Shown piece after piece: positions 503 to 62,100 of a stretch of DNA of 64,000 bases. The notes beneath the pieces are model-generated. The model was not told where the DNA came from, did not search any database, and was given only the letters and a program-made list of their open reading frames with translations. Numbering within the stretch: position 1 is the stretch's first letter; every line of letters begins with the position of its first letter. Both the position numbers and the translations under genes were made by a program. The DNA comes from Verrucomicrobiota bacterium (GTDB lineage Bacteria; Verrucomicrobiota; Verrucomicrobiia; JABWAM01), in assembly GCA_023269615.1 (NCBI GenBank), contig JAHFSY010000003.1, positions 87,665 to 151,664 on the forward strand, read 5' to 3'.

Positions 503-1012
503 ATGACCGCTGCACCCCAGTTGGCTTACGACTCAAAGATCGAGGGCAATGTCGTGGTCACGCGCCTGGATTCGGCGGTCAACTGGGTCCGTAAAAATTC
601 GCTCTGGCCGATGCCCCTGGGGCTGGCCTGTTGCGCGATCGAGTTGATGGCGGCGGGCGCTTCGCGGTTCGACATCGCGCGCTTTGGCGCCGAGGTGATG
701 CGCTTTTCGCCCCGTCAGGCCGACCTTCTCATTGTGGCGGGCACGGTCACCTATAAGATGGCTTCTGCGGCTAAACGGATTTACGACCAGATGCCCTCCC
801 CGAAATGGGTGATTGCGATGGGCGCGTGCGCTTCCACGGGCGGCATGTATCGCAGCTATGCGGTGTTGCAGGGCATTGACCAGCTTCTGCCGGTGGACGT
901 TTACATTTCCGGCTGCCCGCCGCGACCCGAGGCCCTGCTCGAGGGCTTGATGAAGCTTCAGAGAAAGATCGAGATGGAGCCCTCACTGCAGAGGCTCAAA
1001 GTGGCGTCGTAG
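503..1012 (+). CDS. nuoB: NADH-quinone oxidoreductase subunit B (NuoB/Nqo6, 20 kDa Fe-S subunit)
   Basis: Carries the 'GLACCAIE', 'GACASTGG' and 'SGCPP' N2-cluster cysteine motifs. It is 169 aa with full-length similarity to NuoB. No other nuo gene is adjacent. Confidence 0.9.
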
Positions 1013-3310: not shown

Positions 3311-3350
3311 TATTGCCAGACTTCACCATATTCATTAATCTTTGCGCCCT

Positions 3351-4325
3351 ATGAAAAAAATCAAAGTTTTTACCCTTTCCGTTCTTTCCATTTCCATGCT
3401 GTTTTGGGCCAACTATCGCTCTGCGATCGTCGGCGTCGGAGCAGCAAACATGCTTTGCCTGATCAGTCAGGCGTCCATGTACAACATCCCTACTGCGGAC
3501 GAGGCGGCAGACCGTGCCACCACCCAGAATAGCAGCCCCAGCATGACGCAGTCCGATGGCACGATCGGTGCCTTGGGCGGCTCGCTTGCCAGTCCTCGCG
3601 GAAACGGCAAGGGCTTCCAGTTCAAGAATCCCGTGGTGACCCCTGGGTTTTCGTATCGCTCGTACGATGACGGTGCGACTGGCGGGTTCGCCGGCAATGA
3701 AATGGGCGGCGACATCAGCATGGACGCTGACATCTACGACGGCCTGATCGCGGGTCTCTTTTACCAGCACCTCTATCGTGGCGGCTCCAACCAGTTCGCC
3801 ACCAGCGAGCGTCTCGAATCAAACGGAATCTCCCTCTATGCGGGCAAGCGTTTCTTCGACCTGATGAACGTCGGCTTGTCCTACAACCACGCCTGGACCG
3901 ATCATCGGCTGACTCGTGGCGTGACCCGCAACCTGGATCGCGATTCCGATGGTTTCACGGTATTGTGGGGTGCCAGCGATCGCATGGGTCACTGGAGCTG
4001 GAATGTGACTCCTTCGCTCACCTACGTGCACGATGCCTATTCCAAGCAGAAGGCCTTGGACACCTCCCGCATGACCGTGGGCATGGGGCTCAACTATGAT
4101 GCCGCGAAGTGGCTCACTGTGGGCGGCGCGCTCAATTACAACGTGTTCCTCCAGCAAGATTCGTTCACGGGTGGGGCTCTCGATAATGACTACATCACCA
4201 TCGGGCCTCGCTTGCGGTTCATCCCCCTGGAGAACTTCGCCATCAACTTGGATTTCGACGACCAGGAAGGCTTCAAGAACTACCGTTCCTACGCAGCTCA
4301 CATCGGATTTGAATACGCATTCTGA
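3351..4325 (+). CDS. Hypothetical outer-membrane beta-barrel protein
   Basis: Signal peptide, alternating amphipathic beta-strand pattern, and C-terminal 'FEYAF' ending in an aromatic residue. Confidence 0.4.
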   Translation: MKKIKVFTLSVLSISMLFWANYRSAIVGVGAANMLCLISQASMYNIPTADEAADRATTQNSSPSMTQSDGTIGALGGSLASPRGNGKGFQFKNPVVTPGFSYRSYDDGATGGFAGNEMGGDISMDADIYDGLIAGLFYQHLYRGGSNQFATSERLESNGISLYAGKRFFDLMNVGLSYNHAWTDHRLTRGVTRNLDRDSDGFTVLWGASDRMGHWSWNVTPSLTYVHDAYSKQKALDTSRMTVGMGLNYDAAKWLTVGGALNYNVFLQQDSFTGGALDNDYITIGPRLRFIPLENFAINLDFDDQEGFKNYRSYAAHIGFEYAF

Positions 4326-4355
4326 TCCTGGGTTTGCTTCTCACCTGGGTTTCCA

Positions 4356-5405
4356 TTGAAAAAACTCCTTCACGCCCTTGCGGGCCTTCTGGCCCTGCAA
4401 GCGGCGTCGGTGTTTGCCGACGATAATAAGTTCGAGTCATTCTCCATTCAGAAGGTGAGTGGGAGTGCCTCGAAGATCAAGGCGGCCGGGGCTTCCGACT
4501 TCAAGGCGGCCCAGCCAAGCGAAACCTACAAGGCTGGATCGGTTGGGAAAACGGGCGACCAGAGTACCATCACGATCGCGTTTGACGCCGAGAACCAATT
4601 CCGTCTCCTGCCCAACACCGAGGTTTCCATTTCCACTTCCACGCGGGATCCCAAGTTCCGTAAAGTCGTGGACCTGACGATGGAAAAAGGAGGGGTCAAG
4701 GTGGACCTCGATAATTTTCCTAAAAATTATCAGCTCAGGGTCCAGACTCCCACAGCCGTATGCGGCGCAGTTGGAACAAGATTTGAGGTGACGAGCAGCA
4801 AGGACGGCACATCAAACAATTTTCAGTGTGACCGCGGCTCGATCTCCGCCAAGTCCATTGATGACAATGGTTTTGATGCGCCCGTGATCAGCAAGGGGCA
4901 GACCCTTCAGGCCAAAGCCGCACCGGGCAAGGACAATTCCTACACGCAGCTCAGCACCCAGGGCGGCGACATGCAGGTTGCGGTGGGATCATCCGAAAAA
5001 GTCAACGTGGCTGAAAACAGTTCGTTTGAGTACGCGAAGGAACGTGGTAACAACCCGGTCGCCCTGCATGTCAAAAAGGGCAGCGTGGGTGGCAATAAGG
5101 AAGGCCACTATCTTGTGGATGGTGACAAAGTTCAGGATTTCGCAAAGAAAGAAAATGGCCCCGCCCTTATGGACGATTATATCGTTGCCGCGCAAAAGGA
5201 AGGCGATACCAAGGCCAAACTGGGCATGGCGAAGGATGACGCAACAAAGGAAAAGTTGGAGGAACAGCTCGACAGGGACGCCAAGGATGCCAATGAAAAA
5301 CGGAAGGCCATGATGGAATTCCGACGGGTTCTTGGTGATACGATTGGCAGCGGATTGCGCCAGACGATGGGTGGGAGTCGTCCTACGTCGTCGATGGGAC
5401 ACTGA
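4356..5405 (+). CDS. Secreted hypothetical protein with a Lys/Glu/Asp-rich C-terminal tail (TTG start)
   Basis: Classic signal peptide 'MKKLLHALAGLLALQAASVFA'. No recognisable catalytic motifs. Charged, repetitive C-terminus. Confidence 0.4.
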   Translation: MKKLLHALAGLLALQAASVFADDNKFESFSIQKVSGSASKIKAAGASDFKAAQPSETYKAGSVGKTGDQSTITIAFDAENQFRLLPNTEVSISTSTRDPKFRKVVDLTMEKGGVKVDLDNFPKNYQLRVQTPTAVCGAVGTRFEVTSSKDGTSNNFQCDRGSISAKSIDDNGFDAPVISKGQTLQAKAAPGKDNSYTQLSTQGGDMQVAVGSSEKVNVAENSSFEYAKERGNNPVALHVKKGSVGGNKEGHYLVDGDKVQDFAKKENGPALMDDYIVAAQKEGDTKAKLGMAKDDATKEKLEEQLDRDAKDANEKRKAMMEFRRVLGDTIGSGLRQTMGGSRPTSSMGH

Positions 5406-5457
5406 GTTGGTGCGGGCGTTCGTTCCCGCTTCTGTATCATTTCATGGTGTCCCTTCC

Positions 5458-6294
5458 ATGTTGCTTCGTAACCTCCTGGCGTGTTGTCTTGGTCCGTTGC
5501 TGGCACCTTTCGTCCTGTCCGCGCCACCCTACGAATGGGCCACACCGGTCCGGCTGACCTCGGCCACCTGCACGGAATTTTCCGGGGTCAGCAGCCTTCC
5601 TCTCACCGCGGAGACGGTTTCTTTGCTGAAATTCTCTGCGGACAACGGTCTCGCCCTGCCCATGCGCGGGAGTGATGTGTGGAGCAATGGCTCGGGCGAC
5701 GAGATGTTGAAATGGCTGGGCTCCCTTGCAGAACAAAACCAGCCCGACACCACGCTGATTCTCTATTTCTCGACGCATCAGCTCAAGGACGGAAACACCC
5801 GCTTTACCGATGGCCCCGACCTGGAGCCGACACGACTGGTGGACGCCATCAACAAGGCTGCTGGACATTACAAGCGGGTTCTCTTCATCAACGACAGTTG
5901 TTACGGCACTGCGCTCGAAAGGGGCGGGAGTTTTGCAGACAATGTCATCCGGCTTTATTCCGCGAGGAGCGACGAGCTTTCCATGGAATTCAAATTCAAC
6001 AAGGGCCCCTACGGGCTGGAGGAATTTGTGGAGAAGGAGAGGGTTTTTCTTCGCGCCAACTGGAATTGGGATCCACCCGGCATGGGCCTCCTCGGAATCA
6101 TGGGACTCAAGGCCGGACTGCATTTCCGCGAGGAATCCCCCGCCACGATTGACCTCCAACATTTTGTAGATGAGTTGAGCCGCTTCCGTGATCTCTATAA
6201 CGAGGAAATCCGGCAGGCACGCGCCCAGCACCTCACGCTGATCCCCGCCAGCGCCAATTTCGACATCCTGAAACGCTCGCATCCCCCGGAGTAG
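5458..6294 (+). CDS. Caspase-like (peptidase C14/CHAT-type His-Cys dyad) domain protein
   Basis: 'LILYFSTHQ' matches the caspase His block and 'FINDSCYG' the catalytic Cys block. Hydrophobic N-terminus. Lies directly upstream of the CHASE2 cyclase. Confidence 0.4.
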   Translation: MLLRNLLACCLGPLLAPFVLSAPPYEWATPVRLTSATCTEFSGVSSLPLTAETVSLLKFSADNGLALPMRGSDVWSNGSGDEMLKWLGSLAEQNQPDTTLILYFSTHQLKDGNTRFTDGPDLEPTRLVDAINKAAGHYKRVLFINDSCYGTALERGGSFADNVIRLYSARSDELSMEFKFNKGPYGLEEFVEKERVFLRANWNWDPPGMGLLGIMGLKAGLHFREESPATIDLQHFVDELSRFRDLYNEEIRQARAQHLTLIPASANFDILKRSHPPE

Positions 6295-6309
6295 GTTTCC
6301 AGGCACACC

Positions 6310-8784
6310 ATGAAGCGATCCCATCGAGCCATCTTTCTCATCTGTGTGATCATCTGGCTCATTGCCGCCGGGGCGATGCAATTCGGATGGGTCGAAAACC
6401 TGGAAATGAAGACCGTGGATGCGAGGTTTCGTCTTCGTCATCTAGTGATGAAATACTTCAAATGCGTCACGGTTTCCGACCAGGTGATTCTCGTGGGGGT
6501 GGACGAAAAATCGGTGGATCCCTTGAACAGCCACGCCGACCGATGGGGCGTCGGGGGCTGGTTGACCCGCGACCACTGGATTGATGCGTTGGGCCCGCTG
6601 GTCAATCATTTCAAGCCCAAGGTGGTGGCTTACGACATCATTTTTTCTCCGTTTCGCACCCCACATCGAGTCCAGGACAAGTCGGGCGGCGATGATACGC
6701 TGGTTGATACCACTCTGCAGAAAAGCAAGGAGACATTTTCAAAGCTGATCAATGATCCGGATTTTCCAAGAATCAAGTTGCTCAACCTGCTGGATGAAGC
6801 CTGCAACACGACCATGGCGTCCAGGTTTTACGACATTGAGGATTCCCGTGCTGCCGGCAAGACGATGCCTCATTTCATCACGGCTTGCTCGTTAACCTAC
6901 ACGAATATTGATCACGCGGTATTGTGGGACCCGTTGAAGGAGTCGGACAAGAAGAAGATTGGGCGGCTGGTGCCACGGCAAATTTCCTCCGAATGTCTCG
7001 GGCCGGTGCCATCGGACTATCTCTATGGACACAACGCGGGACTCCCCTTCGACGATCTGGTGGATTCCCCGATCCGCATGGCCTCCATCAATGTCCCGCG
7101 CGATGAGGACGGCACCTTGCGGCGTGTCCCCCTGGTGATCGGGTTCCGCAATCCGCTTGATGGAGACAAACCTGTATTCATCCCGTCCATGTCGCTCATG
7201 GCGTGCCTGATTTATCTTGGCCTCGACGCCGATCCATCCCAGTGGAAGGGTGATCCCAGGTCTCCCCAGGGCATGCACGTGGACTTTGGCAGGGAGCTTC
7301 ATGTGTGGGCTCCCGGGCGGGACATCCGGATCCCCATTGATTCGCAGGGAAGGATGTTTTTGAATTTTGCCGGCACGATCCCGGATTATTACCAGGTTCC
7401 CTACGTGGCGGTTTCGGATTACGGCGAGGTGCTGGCCGCGGAAAACTCGCTGAGTCCGGAACAGCGAAAGCAGGCGGAGGTGGCGCTGGACACCGCCCAC
7501 CGGATGCAGAAACGGTTGCAGGGCAGGATTGCCCTCATCGGATTGACGTTCACCGGTGGCACCGACGTGGGGCCATGCGCGGTGGATTCCAACACGCCGC
7601 TGGTTTTCATTCACATGACGGCCATTGACAATATTCTGCGGGAGAGTTTTTTGCGTCCGATGAACCATGCCTGGACCGTGGCGCTGCTCACCGTGTTGCT
7701 GGGGTTGATCGGCTGGATCAACACGCATCGCAGCGCAGGGGCGTCGGCGCGCAACACGGTGGCGTTATTGCTGGGCACGGAGCTCATGGCGTTGGTCTTG
7801 TTTTTTGCGAACATCACGATCGTGCCGATGATGGTGACAGGGTTGCCCATGCTGGTCGCCGTTGGGGCCATCTCGCTTTTTCGCTACGGGGTGGAGCAAA
7901 AGGGAAGAATGGAAATCCGGAAAAAATTCTCGGCGATGGTTTCTGGAAAGGTGCTCCAGTACATGGAGGAGCATCCGGAAAAAATTTCCGGCGAACGCCG
8001 CGAAGTCACGATGTTCTTCTCGGACGTGGCGGGTTTCACCAGCATGTCCGAAAAACTTTCGCCGGAAAAACTCGGCAAGATTCTGAACGATTACCTCACG
8101 CCCATGGCTGACCTGATCCTGGCTCATGATGGCTACTTGAATAAATTTGCAGGGGACGGGATCATGGCCGTATGGGGCGTGCCTTACCCGGATCTCAACC
8201 ACGCCTCGCTGGCCTGCATGGCCGCGTTGCAACAACAGGTGAAGATTCAGGAGTTGAAGCCTGTTTTTCGCGAGCAATTCGGTTTGGAGTTGAAGGTCCG
8301 CATGGGATTGAATACGGGTGTGGTTTCGGCGGGAAACATGGGGTCCAAAAACCGCTACGAATACACGGTGATGGGCGACGCCGTGAATTTTGCAGCGCGC
8401 CTCGAGCCTTCCAACAAGGAATACGGCACCTCCATCATGATCGGCGAACAAACGCATCTTGAGGCGAAGGATGTGGTCATCACGCGACGTCTCGACCGCC
8501 TTGTGGTCACGGGCAAGACGGAACCCGTGCAGGTGTATGAGCTGGTGGGTCGCAAAGGGGATGTTTCCGAGGAAAAGATTCGCGGTCTCCGGGTCTTCGA
8601 GGAGGGTTTGGAATTGTATTGGAAGCGCGAATGGGAGAAGGCGCTGGAGGCGTTTCATGAAACACAGCGTCTCATCCCGCACGATCCCCCTGCCCAGGTT
8701 TTCATCCATCGGGCCAAACATTTCCAGTTGCATCCCCCGCCCGAAGGCTGGAAGGGCGAATACAAACGCGCCAGCAAGGATTGA
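6310..8784 (+). CDS. CHASE2 sensor-domain class III adenylate/guanylate cyclase with a C-terminal TPR-like region
   Basis: N-terminal TM plus a large extracytoplasmic CHASE2-like region, then TM helices, then a cyclase domain ('FFSDVAGFTSMSE', 'FAGDGIMAVWG', 'YTVMGDAVNFAARLE'). Confidence 0.8.
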   Translation: MKRSHRAIFLICVIIWLIAAGAMQFGWVENLEMKTVDARFRLRHLVMKYFKCVTVSDQVILVGVDEKSVDPLNSHADRWGVGGWLTRDHWIDALGPLVNHFKPKVVAYDIIFSPFRTPHRVQDKSGGDDTLVDTTLQKSKETFSKLINDPDFPRIKLLNLLDEACNTTMASRFYDIEDSRAAGKTMPHFITACSLTYTNIDHAVLWDPLKESDKKKIGRLVPRQISSECLGPVPSDYLYGHNAGLPFDDLVDSPIRMASINVPRDEDGTLRRVPLVIGFRNPLDGDKPVFIPSMSLMACLIYLGLDADPSQWKGDPRSPQGMHVDFGRELHVWAPGRDIRIPIDSQGRMFLNFAGTIPDYYQVPYVAVSDYGEVLAAENSLSPEQRKQAEVALDTAHRMQKRLQGRIALIGLTFTGGTDVGPCAVDSNTPLVFIHMTAIDNILRESFLRPMNHAWTVALLTVLLGLIGWINTHRSAGASARNTVALLLGTELMALVLFFANITIVPMMVTGLPMLVAVGAISLFRYGVEQKGRMEIRKKFSAMVSGKVLQYMEEHPEKISGERREVTMFFSDVAGFTSMSEKLSPEKLGKILNDYLTPMADLILAHDGYLNKFAGDGIMAVWGVPYPDLNHASLACMAALQQQVKIQELKPVFREQFGLELKVRMGLNTGVVSAGNMGSKNRYEYTVMGDAVNFAARLEPSNKEYGTSIMIGEQTHLEAKDVVITRRLDRLVVTGKTEPVQVYELVGRKGDVSEEKIRGLRVFEEGLELYWKREWEKALEAFHETQRLIPHDPPAQVFIHRAKHFQLHPPPEGWKGEYKRASKD

Positions 8785-49343: not shown

Positions 49344-49380
49344 TTTCCGTCGGGCAGCGTTTGTGTTACCCTTCCGTCGC

Positions 49381-51843
49381 ATGAAGAGGAAACCTGAATT
49401 GATCGCGCCTGCGGACAACATGGAATGCGCGCGCGCCGCCGTGGCCAACGGCGCGGATGCGGTTTACTTTGGCCTTCCGCGTTTCAACGCGCGCATGCGG
49501 GCGGATAATTTCACGGCGGAGGAATTGCCGGAGCTCGTGCGCTTTCTTCATGCGCACCATGTCCGGGCATTCGTCACCTTCAACACGCTCATTTTCACGG
49601 GGGAACTCGACGACGCGGAAAAGCAGTTGATCCTGCTCGACCGCGCCGGTGTGGACGTCGTCATCGTGCAGGACCTCGGCCTCGCGTGGCTGGCGAAGGA
49701 ACTCGGCGTGCGCATGGCGGTGCATGGTTCCACGCAGATGACCATCACCTCACCCGAGGGCGTCCGCTTCGCGCACAAGCTCGGGCTCCAGCGCGTGGTG
49801 CTCGCGCGGGAAACCTCGCTGCGCGAGCTCGCGAAATTTGAAAACCCGGAAGTTTCGCTTGAAACGTTTGTGCACGGCGCACTTTGCGTTGCGTATTCGG
49901 GTCAGTGCCTGACCAGCGAAGCGCTCGGCCAGCGCAGCGCCAACCGGGGCGAATGCGCGCAGGCGTGCCGTCTTCCATACGGGCTGATCGTGGACGGTGC
50001 GTTGAAGGAACTCGGCGACCGCCGCTATCTGCTTTCACCGCAGGACCTCGCGGCGGTGCATGAAATTCCGGAACTCATCCGTCTCGGCGTCACGGGCTTC
50101 AAGATCGAGGGGCGTCTCAAGACCCCGGAATACGTGGCGGCGACCACGCAGGTTTATCGCAAGGCCATTGACGCGGCGATGAAAGGGGTGGGCGATGTTT
50201 CGAAGGAGGACGAATACCAGCTAGAGATGGCCTTCTCGCGCGGGCTGTTTTCGGGGTGGATGCATGGGGTGAACCACCAGAAACTGGTGCATGCGCGCTT
50301 TGGAAAAAAGCGCGGTCCGTTTGCAGGGCTGATCACGCGCGTCGGAACGGAGAGCGTGGAGGTGAAGCTTGAAACTCCGTTGCGACCCGGCGATGGAATT
50401 GTCTTCGACACGGGCGGCGACACCGACCAGGAGCAGGGCGGGCGCGTGTACGAAATCCGTGGAAGCCATCTGTACTTCAAGCATGGACATCTGGATTTTT
50501 CGAGGATCAAGCCCGGCGACCGCGTGTGGAAGACAAGCGATCCGCAGCTCGAACGCGCGTTGAAAAAAACATTTGAAGGCGACATTCCCGAGCCCCGGGC
50601 GAACGTGGATTTTCAAGTGTCAGGCGCCGCTGGCAAAACGCTCGTGATCGAGGTGGTTGCGGGGGGCGAAACATTTCGGGCTGTTTCCACGATGTTGTTG
50701 CAGGCGGCGCTCAAACGGCCACTGACGCCAGAAATGCTTGGCGAACAATTGGGACGGCTGGGAGAGACACATTTCACACTCGGAAAACTTATCAGCAAAC
50801 TTGAAGGTGAAGTGATCCTGCCCGTGAGCGAGCTCAACCGGATGCGGCGCGAAATCATGACGCAGATGGAAGCGGCGCATGCCGTTTCAATTCAGAAAAA
50901 GACGGACAGTGGTGGTGAGTTGAGGCCGGTTCTGTCCAGCTTGCTGGCCGGGATTTCCCGTCAGCGTGACGTGGCAGATTCAGGCCCCGTGGAGCTGATC
51001 GCACTCTGCCGCAGCATGGAGCAGATCGAGGCGGCGCTTGCGAGCGGGTGTTCGACCATCTATGCCGACTTCGAGGACATCCGCCGCTATCATGAAGCCG
51101 TGGCTAGTGTCCGCAAGAAAGCGGGCGCGGCCATCCTTCTTGCCACGCCGCGCATCCAGAAGGCGGGCGAGCAGGGATTTTTCAAGCTCATCGAGGCCGC
51201 CGGGGCGGACGGCGTCTTGATCCGCAACCTGGGCGCGCTCGATTTTTTCAAGGACAGCGCGCTGCGAAAGATCGGTGACTTTTCGCTCAACGTCGCCAAT
51301 CCACTTTCTGCCGCGCTCCTCATGCGCGAGGGGCTGGAGCGGCTCACGATTTCGTACGACTTGAATGCGGACCAGGTGCTCGACTTGCTGAAGGCGGCTC
51401 CGCCTGCGTGGTTTGAGCTGACGGTGCACCAGCACATGCCGATGTTTCACATGGAGCACTGCGTCTTTGCGGCGTTTCTGTCCAACGGCACCGACCATAC
51501 CAATTGCGGTCGTCCATGCGATACTCACAAGTTGAAGCTGCGCGATCGGGTGGGAGTGGAGCATCCCGTGAAGGCCGACGTGGGCTGCCGCAACACCGTG
51601 TTTCACGCGAGGGCGCAAAGCGGCGCCGATTATCTGCGGACGTTCATGGATGCTGGCGCACACGCATTCCGCGTGGAATTCCTCGAGGAGAATGCAACCC
51701 AGGCGCGTGCCACCCTCCAGGCCTACCGTGAACTTCTCAACGGAACAATGAGCGACACCCTGGAACTGATCCGACAATTGAACGTGGTGAAACAACTCGG
51801 AGTCACGAGCGGCACACTGACGGTGCTCGCACGGGAATCATGA
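49381..51843 (+). CDS. Peptidase U32-family protein (long form with DUF3656 C-terminal region)
   Basis: 'ELIAPADNMECARAAVANGADAVYFG' and 'FVHGALCVAYSGQCLTS' U32 blocks. About 820 aa. Confidence 0.85.
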   Translation: MKRKPELIAPADNMECARAAVANGADAVYFGLPRFNARMRADNFTAEELPELVRFLHAHHVRAFVTFNTLIFTGELDDAEKQLILLDRAGVDVVIVQDLGLAWLAKELGVRMAVHGSTQMTITSPEGVRFAHKLGLQRVVLARETSLRELAKFENPEVSLETFVHGALCVAYSGQCLTSEALGQRSANRGECAQACRLPYGLIVDGALKELGDRRYLLSPQDLAAVHEIPELIRLGVTGFKIEGRLKTPEYVAATTQVYRKAIDAAMKGVGDVSKEDEYQLEMAFSRGLFSGWMHGVNHQKLVHARFGKKRGPFAGLITRVGTESVEVKLETPLRPGDGIVFDTGGDTDQEQGGRVYEIRGSHLYFKHGHLDFSRIKPGDRVWKTSDPQLERALKKTFEGDIPEPRANVDFQVSGAAGKTLVIEVVAGGETFRAVSTMLLQAALKRPLTPEMLGEQLGRLGETHFTLGKLISKLEGEVILPVSELNRMRREIMTQMEAAHAVSIQKKTDSGGELRPVLSSLLAGISRQRDVADSGPVELIALCRSMEQIEAALASGCSTIYADFEDIRRYHEAVASVRKKAGAAILLATPRIQKAGEQGFFKLIEAAGADGVLIRNLGALDFFKDSALRKIGDFSLNVANPLSAALLMREGLERLTISYDLNADQVLDLLKAAPPAWFELTVHQHMPMFHMEHCVFAAFLSNGTDHTNCGRPCDTHKLKLRDRVGVEHPVKADVGCRNTVFHARAQSGADYLRTFMDAGAHAFRVEFLEENATQARATLQAYRELLNGTMSDTLELIRQLNVVKQLGVTSGTLTVLARES

Positions 51844-55747: not shown

Positions 55748-55859
55748 CCTGCTTCCGTAAACATCCGTTGACATCCATGCGGGAGGGATGTACCCAAATG
55801 GGTATGCACCCGCGGAGTCACGTCCGGACGACGCCTCCCGTGCAGAACCAGCCATTCAC

Positions 55860-57410
55860 ATGACAAAAGCCGACACCGGTTCCCAGGGGAAGAGAGCGTT
55901 GCGCAAGACCATGCGCGTCCAGGCCACGAAACCCCCCGAAGGCATGGACGAGAAGATGTTCAAGGCGGCGGCGTTGGGACAGATTGTAACGCTGGAAATG
56001 CTGTTGCCCAAGGCGACGAATGTGGACTGCCGTGACGCCAAGGGGCGGACGGCCTTGATCTGGGCGGCAGCCAACGGCCACCCGTCCGTGGTGAATCTCC
56101 TCCTGGATCGCGGGGCCAACATTGAAGCGAAGGACGAACTTGGGAGAACGCCGCTGATGTGGGCATCCGAGAATGGCCATATTGCCACGGTGCGCGTATT
56201 GCTCCAGCGAGGTGCGAACATTCATTCAAAGGACAAGGAGATGGCCACGGCACTCACTCTTGCCAGTGCCAAAGACCATAAGCAAATTGTGAACCAGCTC
56301 ACGCAGGCTGGCGCGGTGCTCGGAAGCTGGAATAACTGGAACGCCAGCCCGCGAGCGCGTCCTTTACGGCAGATGCCGGGCGGCGTATTCGATTCGGGCG
56401 CGCAGCCGGCCGTGGCTGTGGGTTCCATCAATCCGAAAATCAAGCGCAACGAGCCAGGCCCTGCGCGTCGGGTTGAGGCGGAGAAAGCCGCACCGCCTGC
56501 CAGATCGCTGAAAACGATCCCCGTCAACGTAACCCGCGCCCGCGTGGAACACGGCCAGCTTGCGTCCCTTGGCGACGCGATTTCCATTTCTCTCGAGGAG
56601 AAATTGGATGAGCTGGCGCGAAATTCCGATTACAGCCGGTCCTATATCAGGGCGTTCGCCATCCCGCTGATGACCAAGGGCAAGGTGAGGATCGACAAAG
56701 GCGACCACGTTGAACGCATCGGGATGGATCCAAAAAACCTCCTCGACCACGAAGAAGCAGAGGATCTTCTTGAAAGCTATTTGATCACGTTGCCACAGGA
56801 AGCGAAGGAAGCAGGGGGTGGAGCTCGCGGCGAAGCGCAGGCGTCTTACGCTCCGGGCGCATTGAGCGTCGAGACTTCCGCCGCGGGCGATGAAATGCAG
56901 GGCGGAGCGGCCTCGACCATGCCGCCCGGCAACGCCGCCATGATGCGGGCGGCAATGGAGGGGCGCACGACCACGCTGAAAATTCTCATCGAGGAAGGCG
57001 CCGACATCAACATCCGTCTGCTGGACGGATGGACGCCCCTGATGTGCTCCGTATGGAACGGCCACGGCGAGAGTGTAAAGATCCTCCTTGAACTGGGCGC
57101 TGATCTTGAAGCCCGCGGTGCCAATGGCTGGACGGCCCTCATGATCGCCGCCTGGAATGGCCACCCTGACATCGTCCAGCAGCTCGTGGAGGAAGGTGCC
57201 AACGTGCATGCATGCGACGAAACCGGCAAGACCGTGCTGATGTGGGCTGTGCAAAACGGCAATCCCGCCAGTGTGAAAATTCTTCTCGCGAAAAAGGTGG
57301 ACGTGAATGCCATGAACAACCGCGGCAAGACCGCTCTTTATTACGCTGCGCGCGAGGAACACCCTGCCATTGTCAAGCTGCTCGAAAAAGCCGGCGCAAA
57401 AGAGTCGTAG
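55860..57410 (+). CDS. Ankyrin-repeat protein (N-terminal 3-4 ANK, low-complexity middle, C-terminal 5 ANK)
   Basis: 'GRTALIWAAANGHPSVVNLLLDRGANIEAKD', 'GWTPLMCSVWNGHGESVKILLELGADLEA' and further repeats. Confidence 0.8.
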   Translation: MTKADTGSQGKRALRKTMRVQATKPPEGMDEKMFKAAALGQIVTLEMLLPKATNVDCRDAKGRTALIWAAANGHPSVVNLLLDRGANIEAKDELGRTPLMWASENGHIATVRVLLQRGANIHSKDKEMATALTLASAKDHKQIVNQLTQAGAVLGSWNNWNASPRARPLRQMPGGVFDSGAQPAVAVGSINPKIKRNEPGPARRVEAEKAAPPARSLKTIPVNVTRARVEHGQLASLGDAISISLEEKLDELARNSDYSRSYIRAFAIPLMTKGKVRIDKGDHVERIGMDPKNLLDHEEAEDLLESYLITLPQEAKEAGGGARGEAQASYAPGALSVETSAAGDEMQGGAASTMPPGNAAMMRAAMEGRTTTLKILIEEGADINIRLLDGWTPLMCSVWNGHGESVKILLELGADLEARGANGWTALMIAAWNGHPDIVQQLVEEGANVHACDETGKTVLMWAVQNGNPASVKILLAKKVDVNAMNNRGKTALYYAAREEHPAIVKLLEKAGAKES

Positions 57411-59100: not shown

Positions 59101-62100
59101 TCACCTCGCCGAACGGACCAGGACCTTCTTCAAAAAGCGCGCGGTGTGGGAGGCTTTGACCCTGGCCACCTCCTCGGGTGTGCCTGCGGCCACGACGCGG
59201 CCTCCGCCTTCTCCGCCTTCGGGGCCAAGGTCCACCACGTAATCGGCTTCGGCGATCAGGTCCATGTTGTGCTCGATCACGATCGCTGTATGCCCTCCAT
59301 CCACCAGCTGGTGCAGCACGCCGATCAATTTCTCGACATCCGCAAAATGCAATCCAATCGTCGGCTCCTCCAGCACGTAAAGATTTCCCTTCGCAGCAGG
59401 CCCGCGTCCACGCATCAGCTCGCTCACCAGTTTCATCCGTTGCGCCTCGCCACCCGAGAGGGTGGGGCTGCTCTGGCCAAGCGCAAGATAGCCGAGCCCG
59501 GTATCCGCGAGAAGCTGGAGCGGTTGCGCGATGCGACGGTCGAACGAGAAAAATTCCACAGCCTCCCCGGCCGACATTTCAAGCACCTGCGCGATATTAC
59601 GGTCACGATACAGAATTTCACGAGTCTCAGTCCCGAAACGCGCCCCGCCGCATGTTTCGCATGGCACATAGGCGTCCGGCATGAAACTCATCGCCAGTTT
59701 CACGCGCCCCTGCCCCTCGCACGTGTCGCAGCGCCCGCCCGGGACGTTGAATGAAAAACGGCTTGCCGTGTAGCCGCGGATCCTGGCGGCGGGCGTGGAG
59801 GCGAAGAGCCTCCGGATTTCATCCCAGATGCCGAGGTAGGTGGCCGGGCAGGAACGGGGCGTCTTGCCAATGGGAGCCTGGTCCACCTCGTAGGCGGAAG
59901 CGATGAGGCTCGAGCCCTTGAGAATTTTCCGCCATGGTGACGATGGATGCCTGAGCCCGTGCAGCAACGTCCCTCGCACCAGTGAGGATTTGCCCGCCCC
60001 GCTTACGCCCGTGACCAGCGTCAACCGTCCCGACGGAAACCGGACACGAACCTTTTTCAAGTTGTGGAGGGTGGCTCCCGCAACTTCGAACCATTCAGCC
60101 GTCTTCAGATCGCGTCGTTTTCCACGCAGGGGATGCCGCATCGGATTGGACAGGAACTCAAGCGTCCTTGAATGTGAAATCTCAAATTTCAAATTTGAAA
60201 TTCTGGGCCTCCCAGCCCAGACGACCTGTCCACCCTGTTTGCCCGCGCCGGGGCCGAGGTCAATGATCCAATCGGCGCGGCGCATCGTTTCTTCATCATG
60301 CTCGACCACGAGAAGGGAATTGCCCCGGGCCTTGAGACGGTCGAGGACGCGGAGCAGCCGTTCGTTGTCCCGGCTGTGCAGGCCGATCGTCGGCTCGTCA
60401 AGCACGTAGAGGACACCACGCAGGTTGGAACCGAGTTGCGAAGCAAGACGGATGCGCTGGGCCTCGCCACCCGAGAGCGTGACGGCGGCGCGGCCGAGGC
60501 CGAGGTAATCGAGGCCGACCTCGCCCATGAAGCGCAGGCGCTCCACGATTTGCGGGACGATGTCACGCGCAAGTTCCCGCTCGCGTCCTGAAAGGCGAAG
60601 CCGTGAAAACCATTCGCATGCGGCGCGTGAGCTCATGGCGTTGAGCTCCGGGGGCGCGAGATCACCGACGCGAACATGGAGCGAGTCGGTTTTCAACCGC
60701 GCCCCGTGACAGCGCTCGCAGGGGTGGGCGTCCTCATCGGATGTCCGCCGCTCGATGCGCAGGTCGCGTTCCGTTTCCTCCTCTCCATCGAGGTCTTCAA
60801 GGGCGTCTTTGCCCCAGGTCACGCCGTAGCCGAAACAATCCGGACACCAGCCGGCTGGGCTGTTGAATGAAAAATCGCGGGGGTCGAGCGGCGAAAACGA
60901 CCGTGCACAGGACGGGCATGTGCGCAAAGTGCTGATGACCCGTTCGCTGTCACCGCGGGAATCGGAAAGGACGATCATGCCACGGCCCGCGCGAAGCGCA
61001 TCGCGGATCCGAGAGGCGTTGCGGGTGTTTTTTTCAAAAAGCCCATAATCGAGCTCAATCGTGTGCTCGACATAGCGCGCCAGTTTTTTTCCTCCGAGCA
61101 GGCGCGGGGTTTCGATGAAGCGACCATCCACGCGCAGGCGACCGATGCCGTGGGCGGAAGCCCATTGAATGACTTCATCGTGAAACCCTTTTCGTCCACG
61201 CACCACCGGGGCGAGGATGTGGAGCGGCTGGCGGCGCAGGGCACTGAGGATCTGGTTCACCGCGGCATCCTCGGTTTGTTCGCGGATGGGCAGCTTGCAG
61301 CGCGGGCAATGTTGAACGCCGACCTTCGCGTAGAGGAGACGGATGAAGTGGTAGGCTTCCGTGATCGTGGCCACCGTGGACTTCCAGCCGCCGCGCGTGA
61401 CGCGCTGCTCGATGGCGACGGTGGGCGGGATGCCCTCGACGCGATCCATGTCGGGGCGCGGCATCTGCTCGACGTACTGGCGCGCGTAGGTGGACATGCA
61501 GTCGAGGAAGCGCCGCTGTCCCTCGGCAAAGACGAGATCGAAGGCAAGCGTGGATTTGCCGCTGCCGCTGAGGCCCGTGATGACGACAAACTGGTCGCGG
61601 GGGATTGAGATCGAGAGATTTTTGAGATTGTGTTCGCGAGCATTTGTAATGCGAATCTCTCCGCTATCCGCAATTGTAGGGCAACGGGCCCCGTTGCCTC
61701 TCCGTCGGACGGCAAGCGGGCCGCTTGCCCTACATAAGAGCGGACGAAGATATTTCCCGGTGTGCGAGGAAGGATGTTCGGCGATGGATTCGGGGGTGCC
61801 GCAGGCGACCACCTCGCCGCCGCGGTCGCCGGCCTCGGGGCCGAGGTCAACCAGCCAGTCGGCGCATTTCACGAGCTCCATGTTGTGCTCGATGACGAGC
61901 GCGGTGTGGCCCTGGTCCACGAGCTGCTGGAGGACATCCACGAGGCGGCGGACGTCATCGAAATGCAGTCCCGTGGTGGGTTCGTCAAAGATGAGAAGCG
62001 CCCGTTGCGGGGTTTTGCGCGTGAGCGATTCGGCGAGAAATCCGCAGAGTTTCAATCGTTGCGCCTCGCCGCCGGAGAGCGTGTTGATGGGCTGCCCCAG

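What the first reader, a model, noticed from the sequence alone, without database searches (positions are those of the whole stretch)
5458..8784. Caspase-like His-Cys dyad protein immediately upstream of a CHASE2 sensor adenylate/guanylate cyclase
The 279-aa ORF carries 'YFSTHQ' and 'NDSCYG' blocks spaced like a caspase, metacaspase or CHAT dyad, plus a hydrophobic N-terminus. It ends 16 nt before the CHASE2 cyclase. CHASE2 sensors are frequently fused to or adjacent to CHAT or caspase-like domains in other phyla. A separate secreted or membrane caspase-like partner for a CHASE2 cyclase suggests a proteolysis-linked cAMP/cGMP signalling pair.
Basis: partly seen in the sequence, partly recalled or inferred. 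Interest (0 to 1): 0.55.

Follow-up and report, generated by a model that had tools for sequence, protein, structure and literature searches.

The report
Secreted caspase-like protease beside CHASE2 cyclase
A small secreted enzyme with the caspase fold, from a rare family with no database model, is encoded in one gene cassette with an outer-membrane barrel protein, a FecR-type periplasmic protein and a membrane sensor that makes cAMP. This suggests, but does not show, that protein cutting outside the inner membrane feeds into cAMP signalling in these probably Verrucomicrobiota bacteria.

Summary
Window 5458-6294 (+) encodes a 278-aa protein with a hydrophobic N-terminus and the blocks YFSTHQ and NDSCYG. 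It ends 15 nt before an 824-aa CHASE2 + class III cyclase gene.

- **Catalytic residues:** His107, Asp146 and Cys148 are invariant in 41 diverse homologues. His and Cys align with the catalytic His164 and Cys206 of the GPI transamidase PIGK.
- **Family:** it reaches no Pfam or NCBIfam threshold. The family is rare: 52 representatives among 1.84 billion.
the gene sits in a four-gene cassette of OM beta-barrel, FecR-domain protein, caspase-like protein and CHASE2 adenylate cyclase.
- **Partners:** FecR is upstream in 13 of 13 close loci. The cyclase is adjacent in 6 of 11 close loci, and again in a 24%-identical relative with a different gene order.

My best reading is a periplasmic clan-CD cysteine peptidase acting on the input side of a FecR/CHASE2 cAMP pathway. 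Proteolysis and its substrate are inferred, not shown. It is a new variant of known kinds and moderately interesting.

The parts
3351..4325 (+). Outer-membrane beta-barrel protein, 324 aa (alternative TTG start at 3342 gives 327 aa). Hydrophobic N-terminal leader; ends in ...EYAF.
   Evidence: NCBIfam PopA porin-like subfamily E 1.2e-5, below cut-off. The L001 orthologue hits OMP_b-brl, E 1.9e-4. Homologues lie upstream of FecR in 9/9 loci where that flank is visible, and directly upstream of distant caspase-like genes in L006, L020 and L023.
4356..5405 (+). Secreted FecR-domain protein, 349 aa. Leader is MKKLLHALAGLLALQAASVFA. FecR domain is aa 65-153 (nt 4548-4814). Charged Lys/Glu/Asp-rich C-terminal tail. 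No anti-sigma N-domain and no TM anchor.
   Evidence: Pfam FecR E 9.8e-11, 42.4 bits against cut-off 24. Weak LipL45/Lsa hits. No hydrophobic window reaching 1.6 outside the leader. Immediately upstream of the caspase-like gene in 13/13 close loci.
5412..5429 (+). Small G+C hairpin followed by a T-rich run, in the 52-nt FecR/caspase-like spacer. Possible weak attenuator; significance doubtful.
   Evidence: Terminator-like scan. The number of such sites in the region (10) is not above the shuffle expectation (7.1 +/- 2.8).
5458..6294 (+). Caspase-fold (clan CD-like) cysteine peptidase candidate, 278 aa. Signal-peptide-like aa 1-23; His107 (5776-5778), Asp146 (5893-5895), Cys148 (5899-5901).
6310..8784 (+). 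CHASE2 sensor + class III (predicted IIIb) adenylate cyclase, 824 aa. TM1 is aa 7-25. Periplasmic CHASE2 is aa 16-468 (nt 6355-7713). A hydrophobic block spans aa ~454-524. Cyclase domain is aa 564-739 (nt 7999-8526).
   Evidence: Pfam CHASE2 E 7.3e-33 and Guanylate_cyc E 1.3e-23. Hydropathy. Closest solved cyclase domains: P. aeruginosa CyaB 3r5g E 1.4e-34, Spirulina CyaC 1wc1. Residues D572, K612, D616, T686, N693 and R697 are present. Orthologues at 44-52% identity follow the caspase-like gene in L001, L009, L013, L017 and L018.

Best explanation
Window 3351-8784 is one same-strand cassette with spacers of 30, 52 and 15 nt. It encodes an envelope-to-cytoplasm signalling module with four parts: an outer-membrane beta-barrel, a soluble periplasmic FecR-domain protein, a secreted cysteine peptidase with the caspase/hemoglobinase fold, and an inner-membrane CHASE2 receptor whose cytoplasmic class IIIb cyclase domain makes cAMP.

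The caspase-like protein is an active enzyme of a rare clan-CD lineage with no database model. Its catalytic residues are His107 and Cys148. The invariant Asp146 lies two residues before the Cys, the S1-lining position in clan CD, so I expect cleavage after Arg or Lys.

It works in the periplasm, on the same side as the CHASE2 sensor domain. Together with FecR and the barrel it cuts a periplasmic protein. The substrate is either a proteinaceous signal admitted or presented by the barrel, or the FecR-domain partner itself. That cut changes what the CHASE2 domain sees and so sets cAMP output.

**Shown:** fold, conserved triad, leader peptide, domain content, gene linkage.
**Inferred:** catalysis, P1 preference, substrate, direction of the effect on the cyclase.
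For: **Fold and residues**
- His follows strand 95-105 and Cys follows strand 138-145, as in caspases.
- H107, D146 and C148 are invariant in 41 sequences.
- The family profile aligns them to PIGK GHG(His164) and DTC(Cys206), E 5e-4.
- 12 of 41 members give weak hits only to clan-CD Pfam families: C13 x7, C14 x4, Raptor_N x1.
- The pseudogenised copy has lost the His.

**Location**
- Hydrophobic leader.
- Many distant members carry lipobox-like ...AGC/...GGC N-termini.

**Linkage**
- FecR upstream in 13/13 loci; barrel upstream in 9/9.
- An orthologous CHASE2 cyclase is downstream in the window, L001, L009, L013, L017 and L018.
- A relative only 24% identical sits in a cyclase-FecR-caspase-like cluster with a different order. 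There the cyclase is 37% and the FecR protein 30% identical to the window's.

**Precedents**
- FecR-domain proteins are operon partners of CHASE2 kinases (PMC5192318).
- S. meliloti CHASE2 cyclases respond to a protein signal through the OM beta-barrel NsrA (PMC13001267). A FecR-domain protein and a periplasmic protein of unknown function belong to that regulon (PMC5498481).
- In FecR-type cell-surface signalling, an OM partner protects the FecR-type domain from periplasmic proteolysis (PMC11637429).

**Cyclase**
- It has the metal, Lys/Thr, Asn and Arg residues of class IIIb adenylate cyclases (residue roles from my own knowledge of Linder and Schultz's classification).
- Its closest solved relative is CyaB.
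Against: - No biochemical data exist for any member of this family.
- The cyclase is absent next to the gene in 5 of 11 close loci (L002, L004, L005, L010 and the P0003 contig). It is also absent in three distant loci that keep only the barrel (L006, L020, L023). The peptidase's obligatory partners are therefore the barrel and/or FecR, not the cyclase.
- The residue after the catalytic His is Gln or His, not the Gly usual in clan CD.
- No substrate or cleavage site was identified.
- No protein-protein complex prediction could be run.
- No cAMP receptor gene was seen in the window among the ORFs I scanned.
- All loci come from metagenomes. Only two carry a taxon name, both uncultured Verrucomicrobiota MAGs.
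Confidence: 0.5

Rival explanations
1. Envelope-maintenance enzyme. The caspase-like protein works with the OM beta-barrel (and FecR) to process, mature or attach an envelope or surface protein. It might act as a transpeptidase, like GPI8 or the plant asparaginyl ligases. The CHASE2 cyclase is then a facultative neighbour that reports on, or is merely co-transcribed with, this module and is not regulated by proteolysis.
For: - Barrel plus caspase-like gene occur without FecR or cyclase in L006, L020 and L023.
- The barrel-FecR-caspase-like trio occurs without the cyclase in 5 close loci.
- The best sequence-level relative is a transamidase, PIGK.
- Larger relatives fuse the domain to transglutaminase-like and TPR modules.
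Against: - The cyclase-FecR-caspase-like triad recurs at 24% identity in a different gene order and without a clearly recognisable barrel. That is hard to explain without a functional tie to the cyclase.
- Cyclase and peptidase identities fall together across loci.
Confidence: 0.3
2. Non-catalytic caspase-fold scaffold (pseudo-protease), like the Raptor N-terminal domain or c-FLIP, that only bridges FecR, the barrel and CHASE2.
For: - H-Q/H replaces the canonical H-G.
- One member's best Pfam hit is Raptor_N.
- No family threshold is reached.
Against: - His, Cys and the Asp at position -2 are invariant across 41 sequences at 25% mean identity.
- Loss of the His coincides with pseudogenisation.
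Confidence: 0.05
3. Anti-phage defence: a Pycsar-like cyclic-nucleotide system with a caspase-like effector.
For: The cyclase domain hits PADLOC PycC models, best E 1.8e-32.
Against: - PycC and class III cyclases share the same fold, and the closest solved relatives are adenylate cyclases.
- The Lys612/Thr686 pair fits ATP (own knowledge).
- The protein has a CHASE2 sensor and four TM segments.
- No cNMP-binding effector gene is adjacent.
- The caspase-like protein has a leader peptide and no PADLOC hit.
- The flanks are housekeeping genes. nuoB is supported by the L010 Oxidored_q6 annotation. IscS-like and Dxr-like are named from motif reading only.
Confidence: 0.03
4. No functional link: the caspase-like gene is simply next to the cyclase by genome history.
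For: The cyclase is missing from about half of the close loci.
Against: - Same strand, with a 15-nt spacer.
- The linkage is kept across 41-53% identical proteins and re-found at 24% identity in a different order.
- CHASE2 cyclases are few per genome, so repeated adjacency by chance is very unlikely (inference).
Confidence: 0.07

Closest known systems
Metacaspases / orthocaspases (MEROPS C14B; e.g. Arabidopsis MC4 6w8r, MC9 8a53)
   Same: - His then Cys, each after a hydrophobic strand.
- A D-x-C motif like the metacaspase DSC. In metacaspases that Asp lines the S1 pocket for Arg/Lys (own knowledge).
   Different: - Peptidase_C14 score is 13.8 bits against a cut-off of 21.4.
- H-Q instead of H-G.
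- C[YF]A instead of CHSG.
- Secreted, about 255 aa when mature.
- No recognisable Ca-binding or p10 features were tested.
Legumain / GPI-anchor transamidase PIGK (MEROPS C13)
   Same: - The only significant sequence-level relative among solved structures (7w72_K, E 5e-4), with His164 and Cys206 aligned and a shared D-T/S-C.
- 7 of 41 family members hit Peptidase_C13 weakly.
   Different: - Below the Pfam cut-off (11.9 against 22.8 bits).
- Bacterial, periplasmic, with no C-terminal prodomain.
- Asn/omega-site specificity is not implied.
Metacaspase-CHASE2 fusion proteins (Trichodesmium erythraeum; EACC2-caspase-CHASE2)
   Same: A caspase-fold domain is genetically tied to a CHASE2 sensor (PMC2853523, PMC3501461, PMC8195603).
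   Different: - For the Trichodesmium fusion, the caspase is predicted to be cytoplasmic and acts as the output of the sensor (PMC3501461). The topology of the EACC2 fusions was not checked.
- Here the caspase-like protein is a separate, leader-bearing polypeptide on the sensory side, and the output is a cyclase.
S. meliloti NsrA - CyaD1/CyaD2/CyaK - Clr pathway
   Same: - An OM beta-barrel upstream of CHASE2 adenylate cyclases.
- The signal is a protein (plant uL2) (PMC13001267).
- A FecR-domain protein (SMc02177) and a periplasmic protein of unknown function (SMc02178) belong to the regulon (PMC5498481).
   Different: - No caspase-like component is described there.
- Different phylum.
FecA-FecR-FecI / FoxA-FoxR cell-surface signalling
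   Same: An OM protein, a FecR-type periplasmic domain and regulated periplasmic proteolysis (PMC11637429).
   Different: - The FecR-domain protein here has a cleavable-looking leader, no cytoplasmic anti-sigma domain and no TM anchor.
- I noticed no ECF sigma gene among the neighbouring ORFs, but ran no dedicated search.
- The OM partner is a small barrel, not a TonB-dependent transducer.
- The known proteases there are Prc and RseP.
- The output here is cAMP.
Burkholderia 'BiofilmReg' operon (RR - LysM/FecR protein - CHASE2 histidine kinase - DUF4136)
   Same: A periplasmic FecR-domain protein encoded next to a CHASE2 receptor. This shows that FecR-CHASE2 is a recurrent pairing (PMC5192318).
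   Different: Kinase output, a LysM domain, and no caspase-like gene.

Membership tests
Clan CD (caspase/hemoglobinase fold) cysteine peptidases | alpha/beta caspase-hemoglobinase fold | tested here: met
   [not shown]
Clan CD (caspase/hemoglobinase fold) cysteine peptidases | Catalytic His then Cys, each at the C-terminal end of a hydrophobic beta-strand | tested here: met
   His107 follows strand 95-105 and Cys148 follows strand 138-145. Both are invariant and align to PIGK His164/Cys206.
Clan CD (caspase/hemoglobinase fold) cysteine peptidases | His-Gly motif | tested here: not met
   Position 108 is Gln (22), His (14) or other (5) and never Gly. A conserved Gly comes four residues later, G112 in 36/41.
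Clan CD (caspase/hemoglobinase fold) cysteine peptidases | Peptide-bond cleavage dependent on the Cys | not testable with these tools
   Needs enzyme assays.
Peptidase_C14 (PF00656; caspase/metacaspase) | Score at or above the Pfam gathering threshold | tested here: not met
   13.8 bits against 21.4, E 0.047. Only 4 of 41 members give even weak hits.
Peptidase_C13 (PF01650; legumain/GPI8) | Score at or above the Pfam gathering threshold | tested here: not met
   11.9 bits against 22.8. Best family member scores 20 bits. 7 of 41 members give weak hits, best E 8e-5.
CHAT domain (PF12770) | Pfam match | tested here: not met
   [not shown]
CHASE2 receptor class III nucleotide cyclase (downstream gene) | CHASE2 domain flanked by one N-terminal and several C-terminal TM segments, then a Guanylate_cyc domain | tested here: met
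   Pfam hits above cut-off. Hydrophobic windows at 7-25, 454-472 and 492-510.
Class IIIb adenylate cyclase | Two metal Asp, substrate Lys plus Thr (in place of Asp), transition-state Asn and Arg | tested here: met
   D572, D616, K612, T686, N693 and R697 are present. Assignment of their roles rests on my knowledge of the class III classification. Closest solved relatives are CyaB 3r5g and CyaC 1wc1. Product not tested.
FecR-type anti-sigma factor | FecR periplasmic domain (PF04773) | tested here: met
   42.4 bits against cut-off 24.
FecR-type anti-sigma factor | N-terminal cytoplasmic anti-sigma domain, one TM anchor, and a cognate ECF sigma gene | tested here: not met
   The protein starts with a leader-like peptide and has no other hydrophobic segment. 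The NCBIfam FecR equivalog scores 13.8 bits against 385. I noticed no ECF sigma gene among the neighbouring ORFs, but that was by eye only.
Pycsar defence system | PycC cyclase plus an adjacent cNMP-binding effector | tested here: not met
   PycC models are hit by the cyclase domain only. No adjacent effector. Neighbours are FecR, the barrel and an IscS-like gene named from motif reading only.
NsrA-type OM beta-barrel partner of CHASE2 cyclases | Sequence homology to S. meliloti NsrA | not tested
Only generic barrel evidence exists.

The most novel reading that the evidence does not exclude
The caspase-like enzyme is the missing input device of CHASE2 receptors. A dedicated periplasmic clan-CD protease, docked to a FecR-domain adaptor and an OM barrel, cuts an incoming or resident protein. 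The resulting fragment, or the loss of the FecR partner, is what the CHASE2 domain reads. That would give the first defined ligand-generating mechanism for a sensor domain whose signals were still listed as unknown in the 2016 description I read (PMC5192318). It would also be a bacterial case of extracytoplasmic caspase-fold proteolysis driving second-messenger synthesis.
Probability: 0.17. Interest if true: 0.75.

Novelty: new variant of a known kind. Interest (0 to 1): 0.5.

Why it matters
- **CHASE2 input is poorly understood.** CHASE2 is a widespread bacterial sensor domain, but a 2016 paper still listed the factors it recognises as unknown (PMC5192318). My sequence search found no solved structure matching the CHASE2 part of this protein.
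- **The one studied case points the same way.** The best-studied case I found, in S. meliloti, points to protein signals arriving through an OM barrel (PMC13001267).
- **The cassette gives a testable hypothesis.** Barrel, FecR adaptor, a predicted active periplasmic cysteine protease and a CHASE2 adenylate cyclase are wired together. Three of the four parts are kept over deep divergence. This makes 'CHASE2 input is generated or gated by proteolysis' directly testable.
- **It adds to clan CD.** The family is an unmodelled, leader-bearing lineage with a distinctive Y-x-x-x-H-[QH] ... D-x-C-[YF]-A signature.
- **Limits.** The family is rare. The only named loci are Verrucomicrobiota MAGs. Nothing has been tested at the bench.

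Tried and rejected
1. Direct Pfam and NCBIfam assignment of the 278-aa protein gave only sub-threshold C14/C13 hits and nothing in NCBIfam or PADLOC.
2. A first AF2 model from 4 sequences was mediocre (pLDDT 68.8). I replaced it with a 41-sequence model.
3. The word-indexed homologue search found only 4 proteins, both with the single sequence and with the 41-sequence profile. It gave no names or accessions, so the organism of the window is not directly identified.
With the 4-sequence alignment it found only 2 genome loci.
5. The afdb50 fold library was unavailable.
6. I looked for paralogues of the four cassette genes elsewhere in the window and found none. The 826-aa and 349-aa ORFs of similar size are Peptidase_U32 and QueG.
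7. I checked whether the Ank protein that replaces the cyclase in L002 is orthologous to the window's Ank protein. There is only repeat-level similarity.
8. The Pycsar reading was rejected (see rivals).
9. The lipoprotein reading of the window protein (LLAC at residues 6-9) was rejected, because the Cys is too close to the N-terminus for a lipobox with a hydrophobic core. This is inference; no SignalP was available.
10. A second acidic S1 residue after strand 1 (position 40) is not conserved: D13/R9/E8.
11. The promoter and terminator scans were uninformative, with counts at shuffle level.
12. Garnerone et al. 2018 (the NsrA paper) is not held in the library.
13. The small ORF upstream of the cyclase in L021 gives only a weak OMP_b-brl hit, which is inconclusive.


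Full report
**1. The observation**

The + strand ORF at 5458-6294 encodes 278 residues. The same protein is called in public assemblies (P0001).

- YFSTHQ is residues 103-108 and NDSCYG is residues 145-150. His107 and Cys148 are 41 residues apart.
- Residues 2-24 form the only strongly hydrophobic stretch.
- The stop codon TAG is followed by 15 nt, not 16, and then by the ATG of an 824-aa gene.
- That gene scores well above the Pfam cut-offs for CHASE2 (114.6 bits) and Guanylate_cyc (84 bits).

So the description is right.

**2. What the 278-aa protein is**

HMM libraries do not classify it. Peptidase_C14 (13.8 bits) and Peptidase_C13 (11.9 bits) are both below threshold. Nothing turns up in NCBIfam or PADLOC.

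The family is rare.
- A word-indexed search of 5.8 billion clusters gave four proteins.
- An exhaustive profile search of 1.84 billion representatives gave 52 at E <= 1e-3 and 13 at E <= 1e-30.

In a 41-sequence alignment (mean column identity 25%) only Leu47, His107, Asp146 and Cys148 are invariant. The family signature is h-h-Y-h-x-x-H-[QH]-x-x-x-G ... h-h-h-x-D-x-C-[YF]-A-x-x-L-E.

A profile of this alignment finds one significant solved relative, the human GPI transamidase PIGK (7w72_K, E 5e-4). Counting from the printed alignment, the family His falls on His164 and the Cys on Cys206. From my own knowledge, these are the catalytic dyad of PIGK. The Asp at position -2 falls on PIGK Asp204.

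Scanned one by one, 12 of the 41 members give weak hits to clan-CD families (C13 x7, C14 x4, Raptor_N x1). Three further single weak hits went to unrelated families.

With the 41-sequence alignment, AlphaFold2 gives pLDDT 92.8 and pTM 0.89.
- The Foldseek top 50 agree.
- His107 follows strand 95-105 and Cys148 follows strand 138-145, the canonical positions.

It differs from canonical clan CD in two ways. The residue after the His is Gln or His, never Gly. The Cys motif is D-x-C-[YF]-A. In clan CD the residue two before the Cys lines the S1 pocket: Gln in caspases, Glu in legumain, Asp in metacaspases (my own knowledge). The invariant Asp146 therefore suggests Arg/Lys specificity. That is inference.

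One homologue, in L005, has His replaced by Leu and an in-frame stop five codons later. It is a decaying copy.

**3. Surroundings**

The gene is the third of four same-strand genes with spacers of 30, 52 and 15 nt.

1. **3351-4325:** a 324-aa protein with a leader, a C-terminal ...EYAF and weak porin/OM-barrel hits.
2. **4356-5405:** a 349-aa protein with a leader and a FecR domain (E 1e-10). It has no anti-sigma domain or TM anchor.
3. **5458-6294:** the caspase-like protein.
4. **6310-8784:** the CHASE2 cyclase.

The cyclase has hydrophobic segments at 7-25 and within about 454-524. These place the CHASE2 domain (aa 16-468, with about 200 aa of insertions relative to the Pfam model) in the periplasm. 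Its cyclase domain is closest to P. aeruginosa CyaB and Spirulina CyaC. It carries D572, D616, K612, T686, N693 and R697. From my knowledge of class III cyclases this is the class IIIb adenylate cyclase pattern. Nothing in the PDB matches the CHASE2 part by sequence.

The flanking genes look like housekeeping genes.
- nuoB is supported by the Oxidored_q6 annotation of the syntenic L010 gene.
- PAP2 and Wzy_C have Pfam hits.
- IscS-like and Dxr-like are named from motif reading only.

**4. Is the adjacency conserved?**

I collected loci through exact-protein look-ups and pattern scans. I then typed them by tblastn with the four window proteins.

*Close clade (35-54% identity)*
- The FecR gene is immediately upstream in all 13 loci where that flank is visible.
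- The barrel is upstream of FecR in all 9 where it is visible. L018 has three tandem copies.
- The cyclase follows in the window, L001, L009, L013, L017 and L018.
- It is replaced by unrelated genes in L002, L004, L005, L010 and the P0003 contig.
- The cyclases are orthologous (44-52% identity over the full length). They diverge in step with the peptidase.

*Distant members*
- P0027 is only 24% identical to the window protein. It lies in a cluster ordered cyclase (37% identical to the window's), FecR (30%), caspase-like.
- Three other distant members (L006, L020, L023) have a homologous barrel directly upstream and neither FecR nor cyclase.
- Other relatives are 620-700-aa lipoprotein-like proteins. 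In them the domain is fused to transglutaminase-like and TPR modules.

The second refutation condition, no conserved adjacency, is therefore also not met. But the cyclase is a frequent partner, not an obligatory one. Only two loci carry a taxon name, and both are uncultured Verrucomicrobiota MAGs.

**5. How it most likely works**

*Shown*
- A leader-bearing caspase-fold protein with an invariant His/Asp/Cys triad.
- Co-inheritance with a FecR-domain periplasmic protein, an OM barrel and a CHASE2 adenylate cyclase.

*Established elsewhere*
- FecR-domain proteins are operon partners of CHASE2 receptors in Burkholderiales and P. aeruginosa (PMC5192318).
- S. meliloti CHASE2 cyclases raise cAMP in response to a plant protein, through the OM barrel NsrA (PMC13001267).
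- A FecR-domain protein and a periplasmic protein of unknown function belong to that regulon (PMC5498481).
- In FecR-type cell-surface signalling, the OM partner shields the FecR-type domain from periplasmic proteolysis until the signal arrives (PMC11637429).

*Inferred*
- The caspase-like enzyme is the dedicated periplasmic protease of such a relay.
- It cuts either an incoming protein signal or the FecR-domain adaptor.
- That cut sets the state of the CHASE2 domain and hence cAMP synthesis.

I give this 0.5. The fold, location and linkage parts are much firmer (about 0.8) than the proteolytic-gating step (about 0.4).

**6. Rivals**

- **Envelope-processing enzyme or transpeptidase** tied mainly to the barrel, with the cyclase as an optional neighbour (0.3). 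This is favoured by the barrel-only and trio-only loci and by the PIGK similarity. It is disfavoured by the rearranged triad in L021.
- **Non-catalytic scaffold** (0.05). The invariant triad argues against it.
- **Pycsar-like defence** (0.03). The PycC hits reflect the shared cyclase fold. There is no effector, and the context is that of a sensor.
- **Coincidence** (0.07).

**7. Comparison with what is known**

- **By fold** it belongs with clan CD.
- **By HMM** it fails the thresholds of C14, C13 and CHAT, so I do not file it in any of them. It is best described as a new clan-CD-like family nearest to C13 and C14B.
- **Against the published caspase-CHASE2 fusions** (PMC2853523, PMC3501461, PMC8195603): in the Trichodesmium fusion, whose topology was analysed, the caspase is predicted to be a cytoplasmic output. 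Here the caspase-like protein is a separate periplasmic protein on the input side, and the output is cAMP.
- **In the literature:** among the papers I could search, none describes a FecR + caspase-like + CHASE2 cyclase module. That is absence in a limited library, not proof of novelty.

**8. Verdict**

The fold, the secretion signal and the recurrent link to a CHASE2 cyclase are right. The real unit is a four-gene cassette whose constant partners are FecR and an OM barrel. Catalysis and signalling remain untested.
- Novelty: a new variant of known kinds.
- Interest: 0.5.

Noticed in passing
window 59101-63978 (-): A 1625-aa UvrA-like protein with UvrA DNA-binding and interaction domains and extra ABC ATPase modules. 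It is about 1.7 times the usual UvrA length.
   Followed up: no
window 49363-51843 (+): An 826-aa Peptidase_U32 + DUF3656 (collagenase-like) protein. I checked it only because its size resembles the cyclase. It is unrelated.
   Followed up: partly
window 55788-57410 (+): A 540-aa protein made almost entirely of ankyrin repeats, which is unusual in bacteria. It shares only repeat-level similarity with the Asp_protease+Ank gene that replaces the cyclase in L002.
   Followed up: partly
L005:1328-2173: The caspase-like homologue is a pseudogene. The catalytic His is replaced by Leu (YFSTLQ) and an in-frame stop follows five codons later. This locus has no cyclase.
   Followed up: yes
L018:239-4513: Three tandem paralogues of the OM beta-barrel gene precede the FecR - caspase-like - cyclase genes.
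   Followed up: no
window 6355-7713: The CHASE2 domain spans 453 residues against a 257-position Pfam model, so it carries about 200 residues of insertions. The 49-52% identical orthologues align over their full length with few gaps, so they share this long form.
   Followed up: no
P0019, P0022, P0023, P0026, P0030, P0048 (distant relatives): In 620-700-aa proteins with leader or lipobox-like N-termini, the same caspase-like domain is fused to Transglut_core2 and TPR repeats.
   Followed up: partly
window 5412-5429 (+): A G+C hairpin followed by a T-rich run sits in the FecR/caspase-like spacer. Such sites are no more frequent here than in shuffled sequence.
   Followed up: partly
window 1-64000: No tRNA gene, and no Rfam family at gathering score, anywhere in the 64 kb.
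   Followed up: yes
window 503-1012 and L010:1-31: The cassette lies downstream of nuoB (Oxidored_q6) both in the window and in the 37%-identical L010 locus. This suggests a conserved chromosomal position from which the cyclase has been lost in some lineages.
   Followed up: no
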